Of a stretch of DNA of 64,000 nt, positions 1-18,193 are shown piece after piece. Within the stretch, counting starts at the first letter, position 1; every line of letters starts with the position of its first letter. Under the pieces are notes generated by a model, which saw nothing but the letters and a program-made list of their open reading frames with translations, searched no databases and was not told the origin of the DNA. The DNA lies in NCBI GenBank assembly GCA_944381115.1, contig CALWJV010000008.1:3612-67611 (forward strand), read 5' to 3'. The stretch is from an uncultured Clostridia bacterium. GTDB lineage: Bacteria; Bacillota; Clostridia; Oscillospirales; CAG-272. The position numbers were made by a program, and so were the translations under genes.

Positions 1-216
1 TCCGAGACCATTATCTTTGATGACAATATTGCGTTCTCTATCATCAATGAAAATATGTATTTCTGCTTCAGCCGCTTGCAAAACACCCGACTCTATTGCC
101 TTGTCGATTGAATCAGAGGAATTTTGAATGTATTCACGATAAACGTGCATCGGGTTTGAATACATTCCTTTTGTCAATATTTCCAGAAGAAATTTTCCGG
201 CAATAGGCTCGCTCAT
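1..216 (-). CDS. GHKL-superfamily (Hsp90/MORC, HATPase_c_3-like) ATPase, N-terminal ~72 aa only; gene runs off the left edge
   Basis: Minus-strand ATG at 216-214 overlaps the upstream stop (TAATG). Hand translation MSEPIAGKFLLEILTKGMYSNPMHVYREYIQNSSDSIDKAIESG...IVIKDNGLG shows Bergerat motif I (E-x3-N-x2-D = EYIQNSSD) and motif II (DNGLG). Confidence 0.7.
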   Translation of the reverse strand, partial: MSEPIAGKFLLEILTKGMYSNPMHVYREYIQNSSDSIDKAIESGVLQAAEAEIHIFIDDRERNIVIKDNGLG

Positions 217-1889
217 TATTTGCTACCTCCTTGATTGTAGGACGGGAACGGAAATTGAATTTTCAACAGCGTCTTGAATACGGGATGGTGGACAATCAAG
301 TCTCCCTTTTTCAAGCGCGTCATCATATTGGCGTAAACTGACGGAACAAATTTATAATCAGGACGAGATACTTCGATGGCATTGGTACGTCCATAAATGT
401 TTGTTCCACAATTTCCCTTAATGCGGTCATGAATCGCGCTTCTAAACTGCTCGGCAGAAAACAGAATTACACCCTCAGAACGTCCGCGCTCTGTAATATC
501 GAGCAAATTTGCAAGCAAGGGAGAATTCTTACTGGAAGTAGAGGGGGCATACTTATTCAGCTCATCCACAAAAATGATGACTTTCTTGGGGACAGGCTTG
601 TCGCTGACACGATCATCCTGGTCAAAATCTCCGTGTTTCAAAGAATAGACAGAACGAATAATATCACCGAAAACAAGGCATTGAAGTTGCTCAGTGAGTC
701 CCGCAATATCCACAACCATCATTTCGCCGCCGTTGATATTCAGCACTTCATCAGACAAATACACCTGATGCTGTTCCTTCTTACTTGACTGCGCATTAAC
801 AAAAATATCGTCGTTGATGGAGTTGTTAATCAGACGACGGAAACGCTGCCATGACTGAATTAAAATGCTGGAGTTATCTTTTTTGCCACTGCCTTTGCTG
901 CAAAATTCTTTCAATACTTCCTTGAAATTAGCCCAGCTTAAATCACCCTTGAATTCCGGACCATAATCAATATAGTTCAAAATGGATTCAATGGTATAGT
1001 TGGGGTCATCAACATTGGCAAACAGCATATCCACTTTATTGATATCGTGTTCAAATGTATAAACAAAGTTCGCTGCTTGTTCCTGATCGAATTGCTCGGC
1101 TAAATCCTCAGTGGGTAACGCAGTATTTGCATACAACTTGTCCTTCTGCTGCCTGTAGGGATACAGATATTTTACATTCTCAAATGGTGTGCAAGGTACA
1201 CCCAGATCTTCCCAGTCTTGACGTTGTGCTTTTGTAATCTTTTCATTGGGCTGATGCACATGAAGCAAATCATCACCCTTTACATTCATCACAATGATGG
1301 CAACATCATCTTTGCATTTGTGCTGAATTGCTTTCAAAAGGAACATAACATAGCTGGTCTTTGTCGCCAATCCTGAAATACCGGAAATATTCATGTGCGC
1401 ACCTTCGGGACCGATAAGAAAATCTCCATTGTATTTGATCGGAACAGAAACATTGTTTCCTGCTTTCATAAGACCCGCTGGAATTGCAGTCTTCTCGTCA
1501 ATATTGTCGAGTCCGAGCGCAACCTGAATATCATCTTCATCTGCGGTGTATACGGCTGAGCCTTCAAATACAGGCATAAAGTTTTCCTTCGTGTTATGAA
1601 TGACAGACACTTTTGCATATGAAAGCGACAGCCGTCTTGTCATTGGGGCGATATCCACATTGCCGAAATCGGAGGAAACATAGTTGCTAATATGTCCTGT
1701 TCCATCCGTGATATGGAAGATATCTTGAACAACACCATATGTGATCGAATCATCCGTTTTGTTATGCACAAGGACAATGTCGAACGGACTTAAAATCGTA
1801 TCATCGGACAGCCAGAATTGGAATTCATCACAGGAGGAAGGATTCTTTTCTGTGGCAGACACTTTGCCAATCAGTTTTCTTGTACTCAT
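216..1889 (-). CDS. HerA/DUF87-like (FtsK-HerA superfamily) P-loop ATPase, 557 aa
   Basis: The N-terminal segment looks like a HAS barrel (GKVSATEKNP..FQFWLSDD..FDIVLV..YGVVQDI). P-loop-like GISGLATKTS, Walker B VIIFVDELNKYAP, and a distal ERGRSEGVILFSAEQ motif typical of HerA. RBS GGAGA upstream; 15 nt after the NurA-like stop. Confidence 0.7.
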   Translation of the reverse strand: MSTRKLIGKVSATEKNPSSCDEFQFWLSDDTILSPFDIVLVHNKTDDSITYGVVQDIFHITDGTGHISNYVSSDFGNVDIAPMTRRLSLSYAKVSVIHNTKENFMPVFEGSAVYTADEDDIQVALGLDNIDEKTAIPAGLMKAGNNVSVPIKYNGDFLIGPEGAHMNISGISGLATKTSYVMFLLKAIQHKCKDDVAIIVMNVKGDDLLHVHQPNEKITKAQRQDWEDLGVPCTPFENVKYLYPYRQQKDKLYANTALPTEDLAEQFDQEQAANFVYTFEHDINKVDMLFANVDDPNYTIESILNYIDYGPEFKGDLSWANFKEVLKEFCSKGSGKKDNSSILIQSWQRFRRLINNSINDDIFVNAQSSKKEQHQVYLSDEVLNINGGEMMVVDIAGLTEQLQCLVFGDIIRSVYSLKHGDFDQDDRVSDKPVPKKVIIFVDELNKYAPSTSSKNSPLLANLLDITERGRSEGVILFSAEQFRSAIHDRIKGNCGTNIYGRTNAIEVSRPDYKFVPSVYANMMTRLKKGDLIVHHPVFKTLLKIQFPFPSYNQGGSK

Positions 1890-1904
1890 TTTTCTATCTC
1901 CTTA

Positions 1905-3038
1905 TTACCGAAAATCTCTTTTGAAATTATTGATGAACACCAAATCGCTTTCAAATGTAGACTTGATAAGCGTTTCCGTCAGATACACTGGGTATAGGTG
2001 ACTTGCCCATCGTTCATCTCGCCCATAGCAAGTAGGCGAACACTCATTAAGCAGCGACAATGATATCGTGTCAACAACATCTGTTGGAATTCCACTATCG
2101 TAATAGTCCTCCAACGCCATTTTCTCAATCTTGATGATCCCTTCAAGCGGATTTGACACTCTATTCTTTGGACGAATCCTTAAATACCATACGCCAAACC
2201 TTCTACCTCGATCATTCTCTTTCAGGAACACAGGGGTGCGTTCCCCGTATTCAAGTTTCAAAAGTTCTGCACCAATTTGTGTTCCTCCGCGTTTGGATTT
2301 GTTGGATGTCGGGAGCATAGGATTGAAACTTTTTGAAACGCCGATCACATTGTAAAACAAGTCGGCGAATTCCGGCTTGCCGGTGTCTTGCCGGAGAAAT
2401 TGAAGCGGACCGTCAACCACCAGCATCCGATCCGTATCCAAGGCTCCGGATTTAACCATATCTGAAAGAATACCAATTTCCATATCGTGCATCATGGAAT
2501 TAGCTTTTGCGATTGCCGCATTAACAGGAATATTGTGCTTTTCCGGCTCAAAGCGGTAATCCACCACTTCCAGAAACATTTCTTGCGCAACTTTTGTCCG
2601 TGTGATACGATGCTGGATTTCTTTGAAATCTACCGTATTCACCTTATCGCTCAACAGCAAAAGATTCTTTCTCTGTATTGTTTGATGTGACTGGTAAGAG
2701 TGGAGCTTTTTCTGGCTATCTCGTTCTGTGCAACCAGCACGTATTTGAGCAACGACAACCGGATAAATTTTCTTACCGTCAATTACAATATCGCCAATTT
2801 TGTAGGTTCTTCGCGAGCCGTCCATGAAGAATGAAAAATTCGAGAAGCTACGATCTTCTGCAAAAAGGTCATACTTCCTGATTTTTTTGGATTTGTCCGT
2901 TTCAAACGGCTCTCCAATCACCTTGATTTCATCGCCTTCATCCTGATACGGCTCTTGATAATAATGGTCAAGATCGAGGCTCTCATTCTGGTAAAGTGCA
3001 ACGCCGCACTTGTCAAATATTTTGTTTAGTGTAGGCAT
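1905..3038 (-). CDS. NurA-like nuclease, 377 aa
   Basis: Two NurA-type acidic motifs, FFMDGSRRTY and MLVVDGPLQF. Paired directly with a HerA-like ATPase as in NurA-HerA operons. RBS GGAGG 6 nt before the ATG. Confidence 0.6.
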   Translation of the reverse strand: MPTLNKIFDKCGVALYQNESLDLDHYYQEPYQDEGDEIKVIGEPFETDKSKKIRKYDLFAEDRSFSNFSFFMDGSRRTYKIGDIVIDGKKIYPVVVAQIRAGCTERDSQKKLHSYQSHQTIQRKNLLLLSDKVNTVDFKEIQHRITRTKVAQEMFLEVVDYRFEPEKHNIPVNAAIAKANSMMHDMEIGILSDMVKSGALDTDRMLVVDGPLQFLRQDTGKPEFADLFYNVIGVSKSFNPMLPTSNKSKRGGTQIGAELLKLEYGERTPVFLKENDRGRRFGVWYLRIRPKNRVSNPLEGIIKIEKMALEDYYDSGIPTDVVDTISLSLLNECSPTCYGRDERWASHLYPVYLTETLIKSTFESDLVFINNFKRDFR

Positions 3039-3250
3039 GATAAACCTCCGTGTTACTATTATCGTAAATGACCTTTCCCGTATCGGAAGGACTAATTTTC
3101 GTTATTCCTGTCACACGCTGTTATAGTTTGTCGAATAGACGACACAGGACGAGTCGTAACCAAGGGATAAGTGCGCCTATTCGCACCCGCGAGGGGTAGA
3201 GCGCGTCATATTTTCGAGTCGGAGTCGCTGCTATTATCCTGCGGCTCGCC

Positions 3251-3448
3251 TCAGTCCATTTGCTTCTGTTTGATATACTTTCCGCTTTTGATTCTTGCGT
3301 CAGCGGGCTTCGGCTCATCGTCGGGGATAGCCCACGAGCGTCCGATCCGTACTGCGCCCGGTATGCGTTCTTCGTTACACAAAATCTGTATGCGCCGTGG
3401 TGAGGTGCCCCAGCGTTCCGCGGTTTGAGCAACGGATAAATATTTCAT
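3251..3448 (-). CDS. Small helix-turn-helix DNA-binding protein (excisionase/MerR-like HTH_17 type), 65 aa
   Basis: MKYLSVAQTAERWGTSPRRIQILCNEERIPGAVRIGRSWAIP is a typical MGE HTH. Start moved to the ATG at 3448 because GGAGG lies 7 nt upstream. Confidence 0.65.
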   Translation of the reverse strand: MKYLSVAQTAERWGTSPRRIQILCNEERIPGAVRIGRSWAIPDDEPKPADARIKSGKYIKQKQMD

Positions 3449-3799
3449 TTCCAAGCCTCCCGATTGTTTTGCTCTCGGTTAGATTATCGTATCAGATTAC
3501 AATTACACACTATATATTATAATCGCTAAAGCGAATAAAATCAAGTGGTCTGTCGAAATATTCAAAAATTGTTTGCAAAAACACGAATAAGGGCTTGGGA
3601 TTATCCCCAAATATCAAAATGAGCGTACCGACAGCAAAGTCGAAACGCTCATTTTCGCCGTGTGTACGGACACCGGCTGTGCTTGCTATTCTCTCAAATC
3701 TCAACATCCGCAGATATATGCGCTCTCGCTTTTGAACAAAAACGAGGGCGCTTTTCTATTATACAAATAATCCAAAACACATACAGGAGGAATCAAATT

Positions 3800-4129
3800 A
3801 TGGCAGATCGCACCCGTCCGATTCGCATTGAATTCTGTGTATCGGAACACGAAAACAACCTTATCAAAAACAAAATGGCACAGATCGGCACACGAAACCG
3901 TGGTGCATATCTGCGCAAGATGGCGATTGACGGCTATATCATCAAAGTAGACTATACCGAACAGAAGAAGCTCGCTGCCGCTGTCAGTCGTGCTGCCGCA
4001 AACATCAATCAAATATGCCGACGCATCAGCAGCACCGGGCATTGTTACGATGAGGACATAGCAGAACTGAAAGCCAAGCAATTTGAAATATGGGAGCTTC
4101 TGAAGCAATGTCAAAAGAACGAACTATAG
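3800..4129 (+). CDS. mobC: MobC-family relaxosome accessory (ribbon-helix-helix) protein, 109 aa
   Basis: IRIEFCVSEHENNLIKNKMAQIGTRNRGAYLRKMAIDG...AANINQICRRISSTG matches the MobC pattern (RHH segment plus the NINQI motif). AGGAGG RBS at 3785-3790. No relaxase gene follows. Confidence 0.7.
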   Translation: MADRTRPIRIEFCVSEHENNLIKNKMAQIGTRNRGAYLRKMAIDGYIIKVDYTEQKKLAAAVSRAAANINQICRRISSTGHCYDEDIAELKAKQFEIWELLKQCQKNEL

Positions 4130-4359
4130 CCACATCGGGGTTATCCACATATGGATTTTCCGTCACCGGTTTTTCAGACGGTGGATAGACTGACCACCCA
4201 GACCGTTCCGTTATCGGACTTCAAGACGGCGGGTTTCCGAACAGTCACAAGGGATGAAATTCATACCCAAATCAATAAGAAATAAATTAACTCTCAATAT
4301 AGTCATCCATCAATCTATCAATACACTATTTTGATGGATAGATGGGATAGGAGGTCACA

Positions 4360-4752
4360 ATGACAGAGAACTTTTTACGCTTTACCGTCGAGAGCCTCTC
4401 GGCATCTTACATACCGTTTCCACGGTTTCTTATGGAGGACAGCCTCGCGGAACTCTCCAATGATGCAAAGGTGCTGTATGCGCTTATGCTGGACAGAGCC
4501 AGCATTTCCAAGGCGAACGGCTTTATCGAAGCAGACGGAACGATCCGTCTTTACTTCACCGTCGAACAGGCGCAGAAGAAGCTGCACCGAAGTCGGCAAT
4601 GTGCGACACGGATATTTAAGGAACTGGAGTCCAGCGGTCTGATCTGCCGCAAGAAACAGGGACTTGGCAAGCCTGCGATGATCACGCTCAATTACCCGTC
4701 CGGCGCGAAGCTAATTCAGCCGAAGGAGACAGGCGAAATACTGTCAGGATAA
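4360..4752 (+). CDS. Replication initiator A N-terminal domain (RepA_N) protein, 130 aa
   Basis: IPFPRFLMED..LSNDAKVLYALMLDRASISKANGFIEADGTIRLYFTVEQAQKKL..ATRIFKELESSGLICRKKQGLGKP is the RepA_N signature. RBS GGAGG upstream. Confidence 0.7.
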   Translation: MTENFLRFTVESLSASYIPFPRFLMEDSLAELSNDAKVLYALMLDRASISKANGFIEADGTIRLYFTVEQAQKKLHRSRQCATRIFKELESSGLICRKKQGLGKPAMITLNYPSGAKLIQPKETGEILSG

Positions 4753-4773
4753 AGGTCGAAAATCGAACAATTT

Positions 4774-4812
4774 ATGCCCCACAAGCGACGCAAACGCTGT
4801 GGGGCATATCTT
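4774..4812 (+). terminator. Rho-independent terminator after the RepA_N gene
   Basis: ATGCCCCACAAGCG / CGCTGTGGGGCAT stem (one bulge) followed by a T-rich tail. Confidence 0.6.
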
Positions 4813-4864
4813 TTACCCATCTATGCCACAAAACGCGCCTGTGCGCCGTGAAGGGAGGAACAGA

Positions 4865-5050
4865 ATGAATACAAAGAAAACAAATGAGGCTAACGAAACC
4901 GATACTGCCGAAGTTCCGGAGTTTGTGTATGAATCTTTAGCAAGAAGCCTTCTGCCGGTTATTCAGAAGTATTACGAAAGCGACGAGGGCAAAAGGGCGT
5001 TTGCTGAGTGGAAGCAGAAGAAAGACGCGGAAAGAAACAGCACTACATAA
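4865..5050 (+). CDS. Small acidic hypothetical protein of the mobile element, 61 aa
   Basis: ATG at 4865 preceded by GGGAGGAA. It lies between two terminator hairpins. No recognisable domain. Confidence 0.45.
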   Translation: MNTKKTNEANETDTAEVPEFVYESLARSLLPVIQKYYESDEGKRAFAEWKQKKDAERNSTT

Positions 5051-5055
5051 AGACA

Positions 5056-5095
5056 GCGGGAGGATTGCCATGCTCGGCGATCCTCCCGCTTTTTC
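5056..5095 (+). terminator. Rho-independent terminator
   Basis: GCGGGAGGAT (5056-5065) pairs with ATCCTCCCGC (5080-5089), followed by TTTTT. Confidence 0.75.
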
Positions 5096-5119
5096 GTTTA
5101 CCAATCTTCAATCTCTGCG

Positions 5120-5169
5120 ATATAAACAATAAATCCGAACCCGTTTCCGATTGGATAAAGGTTCGGATT
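5120..5169 (-). terminator. Terminator downstream of ssrA
   Basis: AATCCGAACC (5132-5141) pairs with GGTTCGGATT (5160-5169), followed on the minus strand by TTATTGTTT. Confidence 0.6.
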
Positions 5170-5178
5170 ATATTGATT

Positions 5179-5580
5179 TGGTGGAGACGACGGGAGTCGA
5201 ACCCGTGTCCGAAAACCCCTTGACATGATTTTCTTCGCAGACAGTCTGTTATTTAAAATTCCCCTTCAAAGCCGTGAGCAGACACACTGCTTATCCAAGT
5301 AGCCCTTTTATTCCTGATCGGTTCAAGTGCGAAAAATCCAATGCAGGTTCACCACTGATTTGACGCTCCCAAATGTCCGTGGTACTACATTTGCGGAACG
5401 GGCGGCTTAAGAGCCGCAGCACTGCAAAGCCAAACTGTTCCCGAAGGAATCAGCTTAACTTAGGCAGCCATAGCAACTGTATCGTTGTCGTTTAATTTTT
5501 AAGTTTGGGCCTTTTACGAGATTACCCGGCTCGCTGCGCTTATCATGATTCGGAATCCCCGTCGAAACCTTTACGTCCCC
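5179..5580 (-). ncRNA. ssrA: tmRNA (transfer-messenger RNA)
   Basis: The minus strand starts GGGGACGTAAAGGTTTCGACGGGGATTCCG and ends CGGGTTCGACTCCCGTCGTCTCCACCA (tRNA-Ala-like acceptor and T-arm with encoded CCA). An internal tag frame reads ...AAC GAC AAC GAT ACA GTT GCT ATG GCT GCC TAA (..NDNDTVAMAA-stop). Confidence 0.95.
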
Positions 5581-17819: not shown

Positions 17820-18193
17820 TACCGTTCCTCCAAGTTGATCTGAAACATCTCTATCAGCGCATCCTTCGTTAAATTACATGAAGAGGCCAATTGTATAATA
17901 TTCTGCATATAGTTTTCTATTTTTTTGAGATTTTCCTCTCGTAATAATTCAACATTTTTTGCAGCGACAAAGCATCCTTTAGCGGGCAGGGTATAAATAA
18001 ATCCCTCTTGTTCCAATTCGTCATATGCGCGCTTGGTTGTGATAACGCTGATTCTGAGATCCTTTGCAAGATTGCGAATAGAAGGAAGTTCCGAATCTTC
18101 TTTCAGAGATCCGTTTATAATCTGATCTTTAATTTGTCTGTAGATCTGCTCATAAATTGCAATACCACTTTTGTTGTCAATGTAGATATTCAA
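17819..18193 (-). CDS. GntR-family transcriptional regulator, YtrA subfamily (short C-terminal domain)
   Basis: 124 aa. IYEQIYRQIKDQIINGSLKEDSELPSIRNLAKDLRISVITTKRAYDELEQEGFIY is the GntR winged HTH. Confidence 0.85.
   Translation of the reverse strand: MNIYIDNKSGIAIYEQIYRQIKDQIINGSLKEDSELPSIRNLAKDLRISVITTKRAYDELEQEGFIYTLPAKGCFVAAKNVELLREENLKKIENYMQNIIQLASSCNLTKDALIEMFQINLEER

What the first reader, a model, noticed from the sequence alone, without database searches (positions are those of the whole stretch)
1..3038. NurA-like nuclease / HerA-like ATPase / GHKL ATPase operon on an ssrA-adjacent island: candidate defence module, cut by the window edge
Three co-directional minus-strand genes are tightly coupled: a 15-nt gap, then a TAATG stop/start overlap.
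- The 377-aa protein has NurA-type DGS and DGPL motifs.
- The 557-aa protein has an apparent HAS barrel, a P-loop-like segment, Walker B VDELNKY and a distal ERGRSEG motif, as in HerA.
- The third gene has GHKL motifs EYIQNSSD and DNGLG.

The operon sits in DNA of visibly higher GC than the host. It lies next to decayed mobilisation genes and directly downstream of tmRNA, a typical defence-island context. From memory, a NurA + DUF87/HerA + Hsp90-like ATPase trio resembles the described Menshen (NsnABC) system. I cannot verify that, and this may be a divergent or new variant. Only about 72 aa of the GHKL gene are visible, and further genes may lie to the left.
Basis: partly seen in the sequence, partly recalled or inferred. 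Interest (0 to 1): 0.78.

Follow-up and report, generated by a model that had tools for sequence, protein, structure and literature searches.

The report
NurA-HerA-Hsp90-like-radical-SAM cassette on ssrA island
The three genes at the window edge are real, but they are the first three genes of a four-gene cassette (NurA nuclease, HerA motor, Hsp90-like ATPase, radical SAM enzyme) carried on an island at the tmRNA gene; I found no description of it, and it is most likely an uncharacterised system for destroying invading DNA.

Summary
In detail: three tightly coupled minus-strand genes (15-nt gap, TAATG overlap).
- The 377-aa protein is a NurA. Its AlphaFold model matches Deinococcus NurA (Foldseek E=9e-11).
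- The 557-aa protein is a HerA (phmmer E=2e-42 to Deinococcus HerA).
- The truncated gene starts an Hsp90-like GHKL ATPase.

99.9%-identical metagenome contigs extend the operon. The GHKL protein is 527 aa. A translationally coupled 559-aa radical SAM enzyme (CX3CX2C motif, B12-domain-like N-terminus) follows.

The NurA-HerA-GHKL-rSAM order recurs with overlapping genes in many bacterial phyla, on plasmids, on IMG/VR viral contigs and, in part, in a temperate phage. Flanking genes are unrelated from locus to locus. The GHKL+rSAM pair is the most constant part. In other variants the nuclease module is replaced by a PIN-like protein or an NsnB-like ATPase, or a DpdB-like protein is added.

Here the cassette rides an ~11.2-kb serine-recombinase element bounded by CTCCACCA repeats. 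Its end lies exactly at the tmRNA 3' end.

The Menshen assignment is wrong. No PADLOC model and no paper I could search describes this cassette.

Best reading (confidence about 0.6): a mobile anti-invader system with HerA-NurA as the DNA-degrading effector. The role of the rSAM enzyme is unknown; DNA self-marking is the leading guess.

The parts
1..219 (-). First 73 codons of the Hsp90-like GHKL ATPase gene. It is 527 aa in full-length copies and is cut here by the window edge.
   Evidence: One search shows the sequence and the TAATG overlap. NCBIfam HtpG N-terminus, E=5e-9. The full-length orthologue L002:9399-10982 hits Pfam HATPase_c_3 at 34.4 bits (cut-off 25). A family profile hits the HtpG N-domain in the PDB, E=2.4e-15.
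216..1889 (-). HerA-type hexameric DNA translocase/ATPase, 557 aa. Deviant Walker A GISGLATKTS (K177), Walker B FVDELNKY (D442/E443), ERGRSEG arginines.
   Evidence: phmmer against the PDB: D. radiodurans HerA 7f6d_B, E=2e-42. Two aligned blocks cover the N-terminal barrel with Walker A and the C-terminal ATPase. The motifs are invariant in 20 distinct relatives.
1905..3038 (-). Bacterial NurA-type nuclease, 377 aa (RNase H-like fold). Invariant D73, E187, D209, H347.
   Evidence: AF2 model: pLDDT 84, pTM 0.84. Foldseek PDB top hits: D. radiodurans NurA 7f6d_G (E=9e-11) and T. maritima TM1739 1zup (E=8e-9). The next hit has E=0.12. phmmer to 7f6d_H, E=0.009. No Pfam hit.
3251..3448 (-). Small HTH_17 (Xis/MerR-type) DNA-binding protein, 65 aa, upstream of NurA and co-directional with it. 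It belongs to the island backbone, not to the conserved cassette.
   Evidence: Pfam HTH_17 at 29.1 bits. Found only in close relatives of the island.
3516..3544 (-). Sigma-70-like promoter match (TTGATT-17-TATAAT) upstream of the HTH_17 gene. A possible operon promoter.
   Evidence: This is a consensus match only. The total number of such matches in the region is not above the shuffled expectation.
3800..4129 (+). NikA-like relaxosome accessory protein, 109 aa (island backbone).
   Evidence: Precomputed Pfam NikA-like on the identical gene in L001-L006. ORF seen.
4360..4752 (+). RepA_N-domain protein, 130 aa (island backbone).
   Evidence: Precomputed Pfam RepA_N. 68-92% identical copies in L010, L011, L012 and L033.
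4865..5050 (+). 61-aa ORF of the island backbone, followed by a strong hairpin/terminator-like site at 5055-5090.
5179..5186 (.). Island end / attachment core: CTCCACCA, the 3' end of the tmRNA (TGGTGGAG on the + strand). The same 8 bp flanks both ends of the 11,159-bp element in L001 and of its relative in L033.
5179..5580 (-). tmRNA (ssrA) gene, the integration target.
   Evidence: ARAGORN. Rfam RF00023 at 151.7 bits.

Best explanation
Window 1-3038 holds the first three genes of a self-contained, horizontally mobile four-gene cassette: NurA, HerA, an Hsp90-like GHKL ATPase and a radical SAM enzyme. The fourth gene and most of the third lie beyond the window edge. The cassette is cargo of an ~11.2-kb integrative element driven by a serine recombinase, inserted at the 3' end of the tmRNA gene. 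I read it as an uncharacterised anti-invader (phage or plasmid) system.

Proposed mechanism:
1. By homology to the solved Deinococcus complex, a HerA hexamer and a NurA dimer form an ATP-driven machine. It threads double-stranded DNA and degrades it processively. This is the effector.
2. The Hsp90-like ATPase has a C-terminal region rich in charged residues that looks like a coiled coil from the sequence (not modelled). Its gene directly flanks an effector module wherever a recognisable one is present, and its start overlaps the HerA stop. I infer that it is the ATP-dependent adaptor or sensor that licenses or recruits the nuclease.
3. The radical SAM enzyme is translationally coupled to the GHKL gene. 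With GHKL it forms the most constant pair of a wider family of systems. The leading guess is that it chemically marks nucleic acid, most likely the host's own DNA, so that the nuclease spares self. That would be a modification-restriction logic like Dnd or Dpd.

Status of each step. Shown here: protein identities, operon structure, conservation, mobility and modular variants. Inferred: formation of the complex, the defence function and every step of the rSAM role.
For: Protein identities:
- HerA: E=2e-42 to 7f6d_B.
- NurA: fold match to 7f6d_G and 1zup, with nothing else significant.
- GHKL.
- rSAM: Pfam at 30.4 bits against a 29.5 cut-off, and an invariant CPNHCxFC motif. AF2 model pLDDT 90, matching MgmA, MiaB, AprD4, OxsB and TokK.

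The unit is four genes:
- It is kept in every close relative with enough flank, while the backbone genes change.
- It is kept in 38 of 69 loci recovered through distant rSAM homologues. These include Verrucomicrobia, Geobacter, Caldilineaceae, many Bacteroidota, Ignavibacteria, Bacteriovoracaceae, Clostridia and Desulfitobacterium; a Cyanobacteriota contig (L088) is cut inside NurA, and a Beckwithbacteria (CPR) contig (L080) shows HerA, GHKL and rSAM but ends before any NurA.
- Overlapping or near-abutting genes are the rule.

Conflict-system signatures:
- 144 flanking ORFs fall into 171 Pfam families with no conserved neighbour.
- The flanks include relaxase/NikA, transposase, Fic/SoFic, type I MTases, a CBASS cyclase with its effector, and YhcG/PDC-S02.
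- The cassette is on 9 of 80 IMG/VR viral contigs.
- NurA, HerA and a short rSAM sit in Marinitoga camini virus 1 next to its resolvase, antirepressor and LexA-type repressor genes.
- Rhizobial and Novosphingobium plasmids carry DpdB-like + rSAM + GHKL with PIN-like + GHKL.
- Other variants insert an NsnB-like ATPase, or place a DndB-domain protein or a NERD-helicase next to the rSAM gene.
- Some copies are degraded or frameshifted.

Island.
Against: - There is no experimental evidence of protection for any member.
- No PADLOC v2 model recognises the cassette. The only hits are weak, partial mad8 and HerA matches.
- The defence content of the flanks was not compared with a genome-wide baseline, so enrichment is not demonstrated.
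- Bacterial NurA-HerA is known experimentally only as a recombination/end-resection machine in Deinococcus (PMC12977600).
- The substrate of the rSAM enzyme is unknown. No DNA modification has been shown, and the closest folds act on proteins, tRNA or small molecules.
- In this window only 73 aa of the GHKL gene are visible. Three of the eight near-identical contig places shown carry a 1-nt frameshift in that gene, so this copy may be defective.
Confidence: 0.6

Rival explanations
1. It is a DNA-repair/recombination module. NurA-HerA resects double-strand breaks as in Deinococcus. The GHKL ATPase plays a MutL/MORC-like DNA-clamp role. The radical SAM enzyme repairs a lesion, as the radical SAM spore-photoproduct lyase does. 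Mobile elements carry the module because it helps their hosts or their own recombination.
For: The best solved homologues are the Deinococcus end-resection complex. The literature ties bacterial NurA-HerA to homologous recombination. From general knowledge, a radical SAM DNA-repair enzyme is precedented.
Against: - The distribution is patchy and horizontally transferred: near-identical copies occur in MAGs assigned to different Clostridia families, on plasmids and in phages.
- No repair genes are conserved alongside it.
- The nuclease module is swapped for PIN-like, NsnB/NsnC-like or NERD-helicase partners, and DpdB/DndB-like proteins are added. That is typical of conflict systems.
- The rSAM fold resembles B12-type methylases and MiaB, not SPL.
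Confidence: 0.12
2. It serves the mobile element itself: DNA processing for transfer or replication, or an addiction module. In the addiction version the rSAM marks host DNA, and HerA-NurA kills cells that lose the island.
For: HerA/FtsK ATPases pump DNA in conjugative elements (PMC10853773). In the window the cassette is the main cargo of a small integrative element carrying NikA-like and RepA_N genes. Some Bacteroidota copies sit next to a relaxase and NikA.
Against: The cassette moves between unrelated backbones. It also sits among ordinary chromosomal genes (transporters, epimerases, sigma factors) with no transfer genes nearby. NurA is a degradative nuclease, not a relaxase. The addiction version cannot be separated mechanistically from a restriction-modification-like defence system.
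Confidence: 0.1
3. It is a defence system, but the radical SAM enzyme does not mark self DNA. Instead it makes a small-molecule signal or a chain-terminating or toxic nucleotide (viperin-like), or it damages invader nucleic acid directly. GHKL acts as the sensor and HerA-NurA as a second effector.
For: From general knowledge, prokaryotic viperins are radical SAM antiviral enzymes. The rSAM and GHKL genes are the most constant pair, and the effectors vary as in signalling systems.
Against: The fold is a large two-domain enzyme with a B12-binding-like domain plus an rSAM core, unlike the compact viperin; no viperin structure appears among the 50 Foldseek hits listed. Pairing with DpdB/DndB-type ParB-fold proteins points to DNA as the substrate. 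No receptor-type domain for a small molecule was recognised in the NurA, HerA or GHKL proteins.
Confidence: 0.12
4. It is a Menshen (NsnABC) system or a divergent variant of it.
For: Only indirect. In one Bacteroidota variant an NsnB-like ATPase (PADLOC NsnB, E=3e-65) and a weak NsnC-like gene are inserted between two GHKL genes of the cassette.
Against: Menshen is ParB-DUF262 + ABC ATPase + inactive-PIN nuclease. The window cassette has none of these. No Nsn model hits any cassette protein tested: the three window proteins, L002 GHKL and rSAM, and the L117 and L069 orthologue sets. The Menshen survey paper never mentions HerA, NurA, GHKL or radical SAM.
Confidence: 0.01

Closest known systems
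Deinococcus radiodurans NurA-HerA end-resection complex (PDB 7F6D) and T. maritima TM1739
   Same: Adjacent nurA-herA genes. HerA is similar over both the N-terminal barrel with deviant Walker A (GISGxATKTS) and the C-terminal ATPase (E=2e-42). The NurA fold match has TM about 0.5-0.66. The presumed activity is the same: ATP-driven translocation feeding a dimeric nuclease.
   Different: NurA sequence identity is only about 15%, and no Pfam NurA or DUF87 model hits. Here the pair is fused into an operon with an Hsp90-like ATPase and a radical SAM enzyme, is carried by mobile elements, and is spread across many phyla. From what I know of the Deinococcus operon (not checked here), it has no such partners.
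HerA-based defence systems: SIR2-HerA and DUF4297-HerA
   Same: A HerA-family ATPase is encoded next to, and presumably complexed with, an effector enzyme. They are mobile and patchily distributed (papers listed).
   Different: The effector here is NurA, not SIR2 or DUF4297. There are two extra components, GHKL and rSAM. PADLOC HerA models hit only weakly (E about 1e-3) in distant orthologues and not at all for the window protein.
Modification-restriction systems with unusual chemistry: Dnd (DndABCDE+DndFGH, whose DndH has a HerA/FtsK domain) and Dpd (7-deazaguanine)
   Same: The logic of a multi-gene modification module plus an ATP-driven translocase-nuclease restriction module. Plasmid variants of the present family include a DpdB-like DGQHR protein next to the rSAM gene (PADLOC DpdB, E=5e-15). 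Another variant has a DndB-domain protein. DndH carries a captured HerA/FtsK domain (PMC10853773).
   Different: No Dnd or Dpd catalytic genes (DndA/C/D, DpdA/C) are present. The candidate modifier is a radical SAM enzyme of unknown substrate. No modification has been demonstrated.
B12-dependent (class B) radical SAM methylases and MiaB/RimO-type enzymes
   Same: An N-terminal Rossmann/B12-binding-like domain plus a CX3CX2C radical SAM core. Best Foldseek matches: MgmA 9ccb (5e-10), MiaB 7mjz (2e-8), AprD4, OxsB, TokK and CysS.
   Different: TM scores are only 0.3-0.58. No conserved auxiliary-cluster cysteines are present. There is an extra C-terminal helical region. The genomic partners are DNA enzymes rather than biosynthetic genes.
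Hsp90/HtpG and prokaryotic MORC-type GHKL ATPases of restriction systems
   Same: Bergerat-fold N-terminal ATPase with the N, G1 and G2 boxes (E28/N32, D68xGxG72, GFRGIGRLG). The closest sequences in the PDB are HtpG/TRAP1 N-domains. Linkage to nucleases recalls the MORC/R-M associations (PMC2292703).
   Different: Only about 135 N-terminal residues align. The middle domain and the charged C-terminal region that looks like a coiled coil are unique. No chaperone context exists. The 2008 survey does not mention HerA, NurA or radical SAM partners.
Menshen (NsnABC)
   Same: A three-gene ATPase-plus-nuclease defence system. An NsnB-like gene is inserted in one expanded variant of this cassette.
   Different: All three components differ in fold and family.

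Membership tests
NurA nuclease family | RNase H-like NurA fold resembling solved NurA structures | tested here: met
   AF2 model pLDDT 84. The Foldseek top three hits are NurA 7f6d_G (E=9e-11) and TM1739 1zup A/B (about 1e-8). The next hit has E=0.12.
NurA nuclease family | Match to the curated Pfam NurA model (PF09376) | tested here: not met
   No Pfam family at E<=1. phmmer to 7f6d_H is only 0.009, and the family profile gives 0.057. This is a divergent bacterial branch.
NurA nuclease family | Conserved acidic/His catalytic set in the order D (strand 1), E (helix), D (strand), H (C-terminal) | tested here: inconclusive
   D73, E187, D209 and H347 are invariant in 62 sequences. They lie on the expected secondary-structure elements. 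I did not superpose them residue by residue on a solved active site.
NurA nuclease family | Operonic linkage to herA | tested here: met
   15-nt gap in the window. Median gap +3 nt in 39 loci.
HerA/FtsK-clade ATPase (HerA proper) | Full-length similarity to a solved HerA, including the N-terminal barrel and the ATPase core with Walker A/B and arginine residues | tested here: met
   7f6d_B E=2e-42, query blocks 23-247 and 376-551. GISGxATKTS, DELNKYAP and ERGRS align. The motifs are invariant.
HerA/FtsK-clade ATPase (HerA proper) | Match to Pfam DUF87/HerA models | tested here: not met
   No such Pfam hit at E<=1.
GHKL (Bergerat-fold) ATPase, Hsp90-like branch | N box (ExxxN), G1 (DxGxG) and G2 (GxxGxG) motifs, plus a curated model hit | tested here: met
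   The window fragment has the N and G1 boxes. The full-length orthologue hits HATPase_c_3 at 34.4 bits against a cut-off of 25. The profile hits the HtpG N-domain at 2.4e-15. The window fragment alone is below the cut-off (13.4 bits).
Radical SAM superfamily | CX3CX2C cluster motif, Pfam PF04055 above its gathering score, and a partial TIM-barrel fold | tested here: met
   C156/C160/C163: C160 and C163 are invariant and C156 nearly so, across 28 sequences of 34-45% identity. Pfam 30.4 bits against 29.5. Foldseek matches rSAM enzymes only at E<1e-3. The gene lies outside the window; it was read in 99.9%-identical contigs.
Radical SAM superfamily, B12-dependent class B | Cobalamin actually bound by the N-terminal domain | not testable with these tools
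   The fold resembles both B12-binding enzymes (MgmA, OxsB, TokK) and enzymes I recall as binding no B12 (AprD4, MiaB; from memory).
Menshen (NsnABC) | NsnA: ParB-DUF262 plus a ParB-associated DNA-binding domain | tested here: not met
   Definition from PMC12065111. No such protein is in the cassette, and there is no NsnA PADLOC hit.
Menshen (NsnABC) | NsnB: ABC ATPase (AAA_15 + DUF3696) | tested here: not met
   The ATPases here are of HerA/FtsK and GHKL type. An NsnB model hits only an inserted gene in the L081-type variant.
Menshen (NsnABC) | NsnC: inactive PIN-like domain plus a C-terminal nuclease/RNase | tested here: not met
   No NsnC hit for any window-type cassette protein.
MADS (mad1-8) | Eight-gene operon including a methyltransferase; mad8 homologue | tested here: not met
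   There is only a partial mad8 hit to the HerA C-terminus (E=1.5e-5, 73 residues). No other mad gene is in the operon.
SIR2-HerA / DUF4297-HerA defence systems | HerA paired with a SIR2 or DUF4297 effector | tested here: not met
   The partner is NurA. No SIR2 or DUF4297 domain is in the operon.
Modification-restriction-type defence system | The system-encoded enzyme modifies self DNA, and the nuclease module spares modified DNA | not testable with these tools
   There is contextual support only: DpdB-like and DndB-like partners in variants.
Anti-phage defence system (generic) | Demonstrated protection on expression | not testable with these tools
No paper describing this cassette was found.
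Integrative mobile element at a tRNA/tmRNA gene | Site-specific recombinase, flanking direct repeats, and insertion at the 3' end of ssrA or a tRNA gene | tested here: met
   In identical or related copies, a large serine recombinase sits at the far end. 8-bp CTCCACCA repeats bound 11,159 bp in L001. Insertion is at the tmRNA 3' end in the window and in L033, and next to tRNA-Ser in L012. The far end in this genome is outside the window.

The most novel reading that the evidence does not exclude
The cassette is the commonest form of a large, previously unrecognised superfamily of prokaryotic conflict systems. Their most constant pair is a radical SAM enzyme plus a dedicated Hsp90-like ATPase. 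In this reading the rSAM enzyme installs a new, radical-chemistry DNA (or nucleotide) modification that distinguishes self from invader. Interchangeable effector modules (HerA-NurA, PIN-like+GHKL, NsnB/NsnC-like, NERD-helicase) destroy unmarked DNA. That would be a new class of restriction-modification and the first defence role for a bacterial NurA-HerA machine.
Probability: 0.3. Interest if true: 0.9.

Novelty: new variant of a known kind. Interest (0 to 1): 0.72.

Why it matters
- HerA-NurA is a textbook archaeal and Deinococcus DNA end-resection machine, and its biological role is still debated. This points to a testable role in destroying foreign DNA, as archaeal work has only speculated.
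- The cassette occurs across many bacterial phyla. Its HerA family is very abundant in public metagenomes (6,503 clusters at 90% identity).
- It is widespread, yet I found no PADLOC v2 model and no open-access paper or preprint that describes it.
- A radical SAM enzyme hard-wired to a nuclease-translocase and an Hsp90-like ATPase suggests chemistry not yet seen in immunity, possibly a new DNA modification.
- The modular variants give a ready-made comparative framework, and the compact 6-kb operon can be cloned.

Tried and rejected
- Pfam, NCBIfam and PHROGs on the NurA and HerA proteins gave no meaningful hits. I turned to PDB sequence and structure searches instead.
- The Menshen idea was rejected after reading the Menshen domain survey and finding no Nsn hits.
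- MADS was rejected: only a partial mad8 hit.
- Ten literature searches found nothing on this cassette. They combined NurA, HerA, GHKL, Hsp90, radical SAM, antiphage, DGQHR and PD-lambda-5. I also read the Aravind-lab Dnd/HerA-capture, MORC and NTP-conflict papers and the archaeal dark-matter paper. The last search was wasted by ranking on title words. The 2011 'defense islands' paper was not held under the PMC id I recalled (PMC3194920).
- PD-lambda-5_A sits next to an rSAM homologue in L054. It is an RM+Abi-type system unrelated to GHKL, so it counts as a defence-island neighbour only.
- Host identification and the empty-site test failed:
  - The exact aldolase protein is not on record.
  - The acetate kinase is found only on two short contigs.
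  - A 32-mer from the tmRNA is absent from genome contigs and metagenome contigs.
  - 80 aldolase relatives are at most 89% identical, and none has an adjacent tmRNA.
- The small partner families of the variants stayed unassigned: about 265 aa, about 335 aa and about 290 aa. For a representative of each there was no Pfam hit; PADLOC gave nothing for the ~265- and ~335-aa families and only a weak NsnC hit for the ~290-aa one. The first two also gave no PDB hit. hhalign found no relation of any of them to the DGQHR protein.
- The promoter and terminator scans are not above shuffled expectation.

Full report
**Observation.**
- A 377-aa ORF at 1905-3038(-) and a 557-aa ORF at 216-1889(-) are separated by 15 nt.
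- A third ORF starts in a TAATG overlap at 219 and runs off the window (73 aa visible).
- All quoted motifs are present.
- GC is 41-48% over 1-5000, against 31-38% in the following 10 kb.
- A tmRNA gene lies at 5179-5580(-).

**Protein identities.** Curated family libraries mostly fail. Pfam finds nothing for the first two proteins. PADLOC gives only a partial mad8 hit on HerA. Solved structures settle the question.
- The 557-aa protein matches D. radiodurans HerA (7f6d_B) at E=2e-42. The match covers the N-terminal barrel, the deviant Walker A (GISGxATKTS) and the C-terminal ATPase with DELNKYAP and ERGRS.
- The 377-aa protein matches D. radiodurans NurA only weakly by sequence (E=0.009, and 0.057 with a profile).
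- An AlphaFold2 model built on 62 homologues has pLDDT 84 and pTM 0.84. Foldseek returns Deinococcus NurA (E=9e-11) and T. maritima TM1739 (E about 1e-8) as the only significant hits.
- D73, E187, D209 and H347 are invariant.
- The 73-aa fragment carries the GHKL N and G1 boxes and hits HtpG models.

**Extending the operon.** The exact HerA protein is on record in 62 blocks of the public assembly collection. Contigs 99.9% identical to window 1-5186 give the rest.
- The GHKL protein is 527 aa (HATPase_c_3, 34.4 bits). A profile of the family is closest to HtpG N-domains (2.4e-15). From the sequence, the C-terminus is rich in charged residues and looks like a coiled coil; it was not modelled.
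- Its stop overlaps the start of a 559-aa radical SAM protein. That protein scores 30.4 bits on Pfam Radical_SAM against a 29.5 cut-off and has an invariant CPNHCxFC motif.
- The rSAM AF2 model (pLDDT 90) has a B12-binding-like N-terminal domain plus an rSAM core. It resembles MgmA, MiaB, AprD4, OxsB, TokK and CysS.
- Downstream lie a separate XRE-YhcG(DUF1016, PADLOC PDC-S02) pair and a large serine recombinase.

**The unit is four genes and it is widespread.** Relatives of the HerA protein were found in 31 genome loci, most from Clostridia and one assigned to Desulfovibrionaceae. Every locus with enough flank keeps NurA-HerA-GHKL-rSAM, down to 50-70% identity. The XRE, YhcG, recombinase, RepA_N and NikA genes do not persist.
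- The rSAM protein has 288 cluster representatives at E<=1e-30.
- A scan with an alignment of 34-45%-identical homologues found at least 563 loci in species-representative genomes.
- My own HMMs find the complete four-gene order in 38 of the 69 new loci. They cover Verrucomicrobia, Geobacter, Caldilineaceae, many Bacteroidota including Alistipes putredinis DSM 17216, Ignavibacteria, Bacteriovoracaceae, Clostridium and Desulfitobacterium. A Cyanobacteriota contig (L088) is cut inside NurA. A Beckwithbacteria contig (L080) has HerA, GHKL and the rSAM gene but ends before any NurA.
- Median gene spacings are +3, -8 and -4 nt.

**Variants.** The GHKL+rSAM pair is the most constant part. My GHKL HMM does not detect a GHKL beside the rSAM in about nine of the 69 loci; two of those neighbours turned out to be a DndB-domain protein (L056) and a NERD-helicase (L108), and a third a PD-lambda-5_A homologue (L054). 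The variants are as follows:
- A second GHKL paralogue plus a ~335-aa protein.
- An inserted NsnB-like ABC ATPase (PADLOC NsnB, 3e-65) plus a ~290-aa protein and a second GHKL.
- A ~265-aa protein, a divergent GHKL and the rSAM, without NurA-HerA.
- A DndB-domain protein or a NERD-helicase next to the rSAM.
- On rhizobial and Novosphingobium conjugative plasmids: DpdB-like DGQHR - rSAM - GHKL together with PIN-like - GHKL2, in either order.
- Marinitoga camini virus 1 has NurA and HerA beside a short rSAM homologue, near its resolvase, antirepressor and LexA-type repressor genes.
- 9 of 80 IMG/VR loci carry the full cassette.

**Context.** 144 ORFs flanking 38 canonical cassettes fall into 171 Pfam families with no conserved neighbour.
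- Recurrent items are relaxase/NikA, Fic, transposase and RhuM.
- PADLOC hits include type I methyltransferases, mad2-like MTases, SoFic, PDC-S01/02/04/05/24/72, and one CBASS cyclase with its effector.
- I had no baseline, so this is suggestive context and not a measured enrichment.

**The island.** Identity between the window and the other copies ends at 5186, inside the tmRNA 3' CTCCACCA.
- In L001 the element is 11,159 bp and is bounded by CTCCACCA on both sides. It sits in a non-tRNA site.
- A relative 85-93% identical in Ca. Fimivivens faecavium is inserted at the 3' end of a different tmRNA. Another lies next to tRNA-Ser.
- I could not identify the host or find an empty site.

**Comparison with known systems.**
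- Menshen is ParB-DUF262 + ABC ATPase + inactive-PIN nuclease, and none of its models hits the cassette.
- The cassette is not SIR2-HerA, DUF4297-HerA or MADS.
- Ten full-text searches and targeted reading found no description of a NurA-HerA-GHKL-rSAM system. Subscription-only literature was not covered.

**Mechanism.**
- Shown: protein families, intact catalytic motifs, operon coupling, modular architecture and mobility.
- Inferred: HerA6-NurA2 is a processive DNA-degrading effector, by homology to 7F6D and to the archaeal complex that cleaves both strands. The Hsp90-like ATPase is the adaptor or sensor, because its gene directly flanks an effector module wherever a recognisable one is present. 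The rSAM enzyme, with GHKL, forms a modification or licensing module.
- The DpdB/DndB-like partners suggest that DNA is the substrate and that the logic is self-marking. That step is speculative; I give it about 0.3.
- Rivals are a repair module, an element-selfish function, and a small-molecule or viperin-like role for the rSAM enzyme.

**Caveat for this locus.** Only 73 codons of the GHKL gene are in the window. Three of the eight near-identical contig places shown carry a 1-nt frameshift in that gene.

Noticed in passing
window 5179-5186; L001:6705-6712 and 17856-17863; L033:6570-6577 and 17857-17864; L012:6497-6588: The island family is bounded by the 8-bp repeat CTCCACCA, the encoded 3' end of the tmRNA or tRNA. 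It is found at two different tmRNA genes, next to a tRNA-Ser(gga), and at a non-tRNA site between an RNase T-like gene and pstS. The serine recombinase ORF reads across the repeat.
   Followed up: partly
L001:11674-13256, L006 and L008 (equivalent to DNA left of window position 1): In 3 of the 8 near-identical contig places shown, the GHKL gene is split (388 + 132 aa). The cause is deletion of the C in TTAACAAAAAA at nt 1107. The same lesion recurs in independent assemblies, so it is probably real. It may reflect inactivation or switching of the system.
   Followed up: partly
L002:12760-14126 (left of the window edge): A second cargo pair on the island is an XRE-family HTH and a YhcG/DUF1016 PD-(D/E)XK nuclease (PADLOC candidate PDC-S02, E=6e-126), with its own promoter-like site. 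YhcG homologues also flank the cassette in two distant loci.
   Followed up: partly
L081:6196-8431 (also L086, L092, L098, L102, L112): In some Bacteroidota an NsnB-like AAA_15 ATPase (PADLOC NsnB, 3e-65) and a ~290-aa protein (weak NsnC hit) are inserted between two GHKL paralogues of the cassette. This is a possible link between Menshen-type modules and this family.
   Followed up: partly
L120:7968-15777 (Mesorhizobium plasmid) and L121:4075-12119 (N. aromaticivorans pNL1): The plasmid variant is a DGQHR/DpdB-like protein, the rSAM and a GHKL, together with a 640-aa PIN-like protein and a second GHKL. The two modules occur in either order. RefSeq annotates them only as 'radical SAM protein', 'ATP-binding protein' and 'PIN-like domain-containing protein'.
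   Followed up: partly
L122:6992-10818 (Marinitoga camini virus 1, KP836355): A temperate phage of Thermotogae carries NurA and HerA of this subfamily, convergent with a 366-aa short rSAM homologue and with no GHKL, near its resolvase, antirepressor and LexA-type repressor genes.
   Followed up: partly
L054:8315-9925: In Alkaliphilus hydrothermalis an rSAM homologue sits directly downstream of a PD-Lambda-5_A homologue (E=5e-74). PD-lambda-5 is a validated compact RM+Abi system.
   Followed up: no
L001:1-6546: In the metagenome copies the island abuts a block of anaerobic ribonucleotide reductase genes (NrdD/NrdG-like), a dNMP kinase-like gene, an LRR-N6/N4 methyltransferase fusion (804 aa) and an RNase T-like exonuclease. 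This looks like another mobile or phage-derived region.
   Followed up: no
phage records H16-H19 and L217-L283: Many phage and viral contigs, including Bacteroides/Phocaeicola phages (LoVEphage, PV4-TP1, BI-TP1), encode proteins matching only parts of this rSAM family, often about the first 200 residues. Their role is unknown.
   Followed up: no
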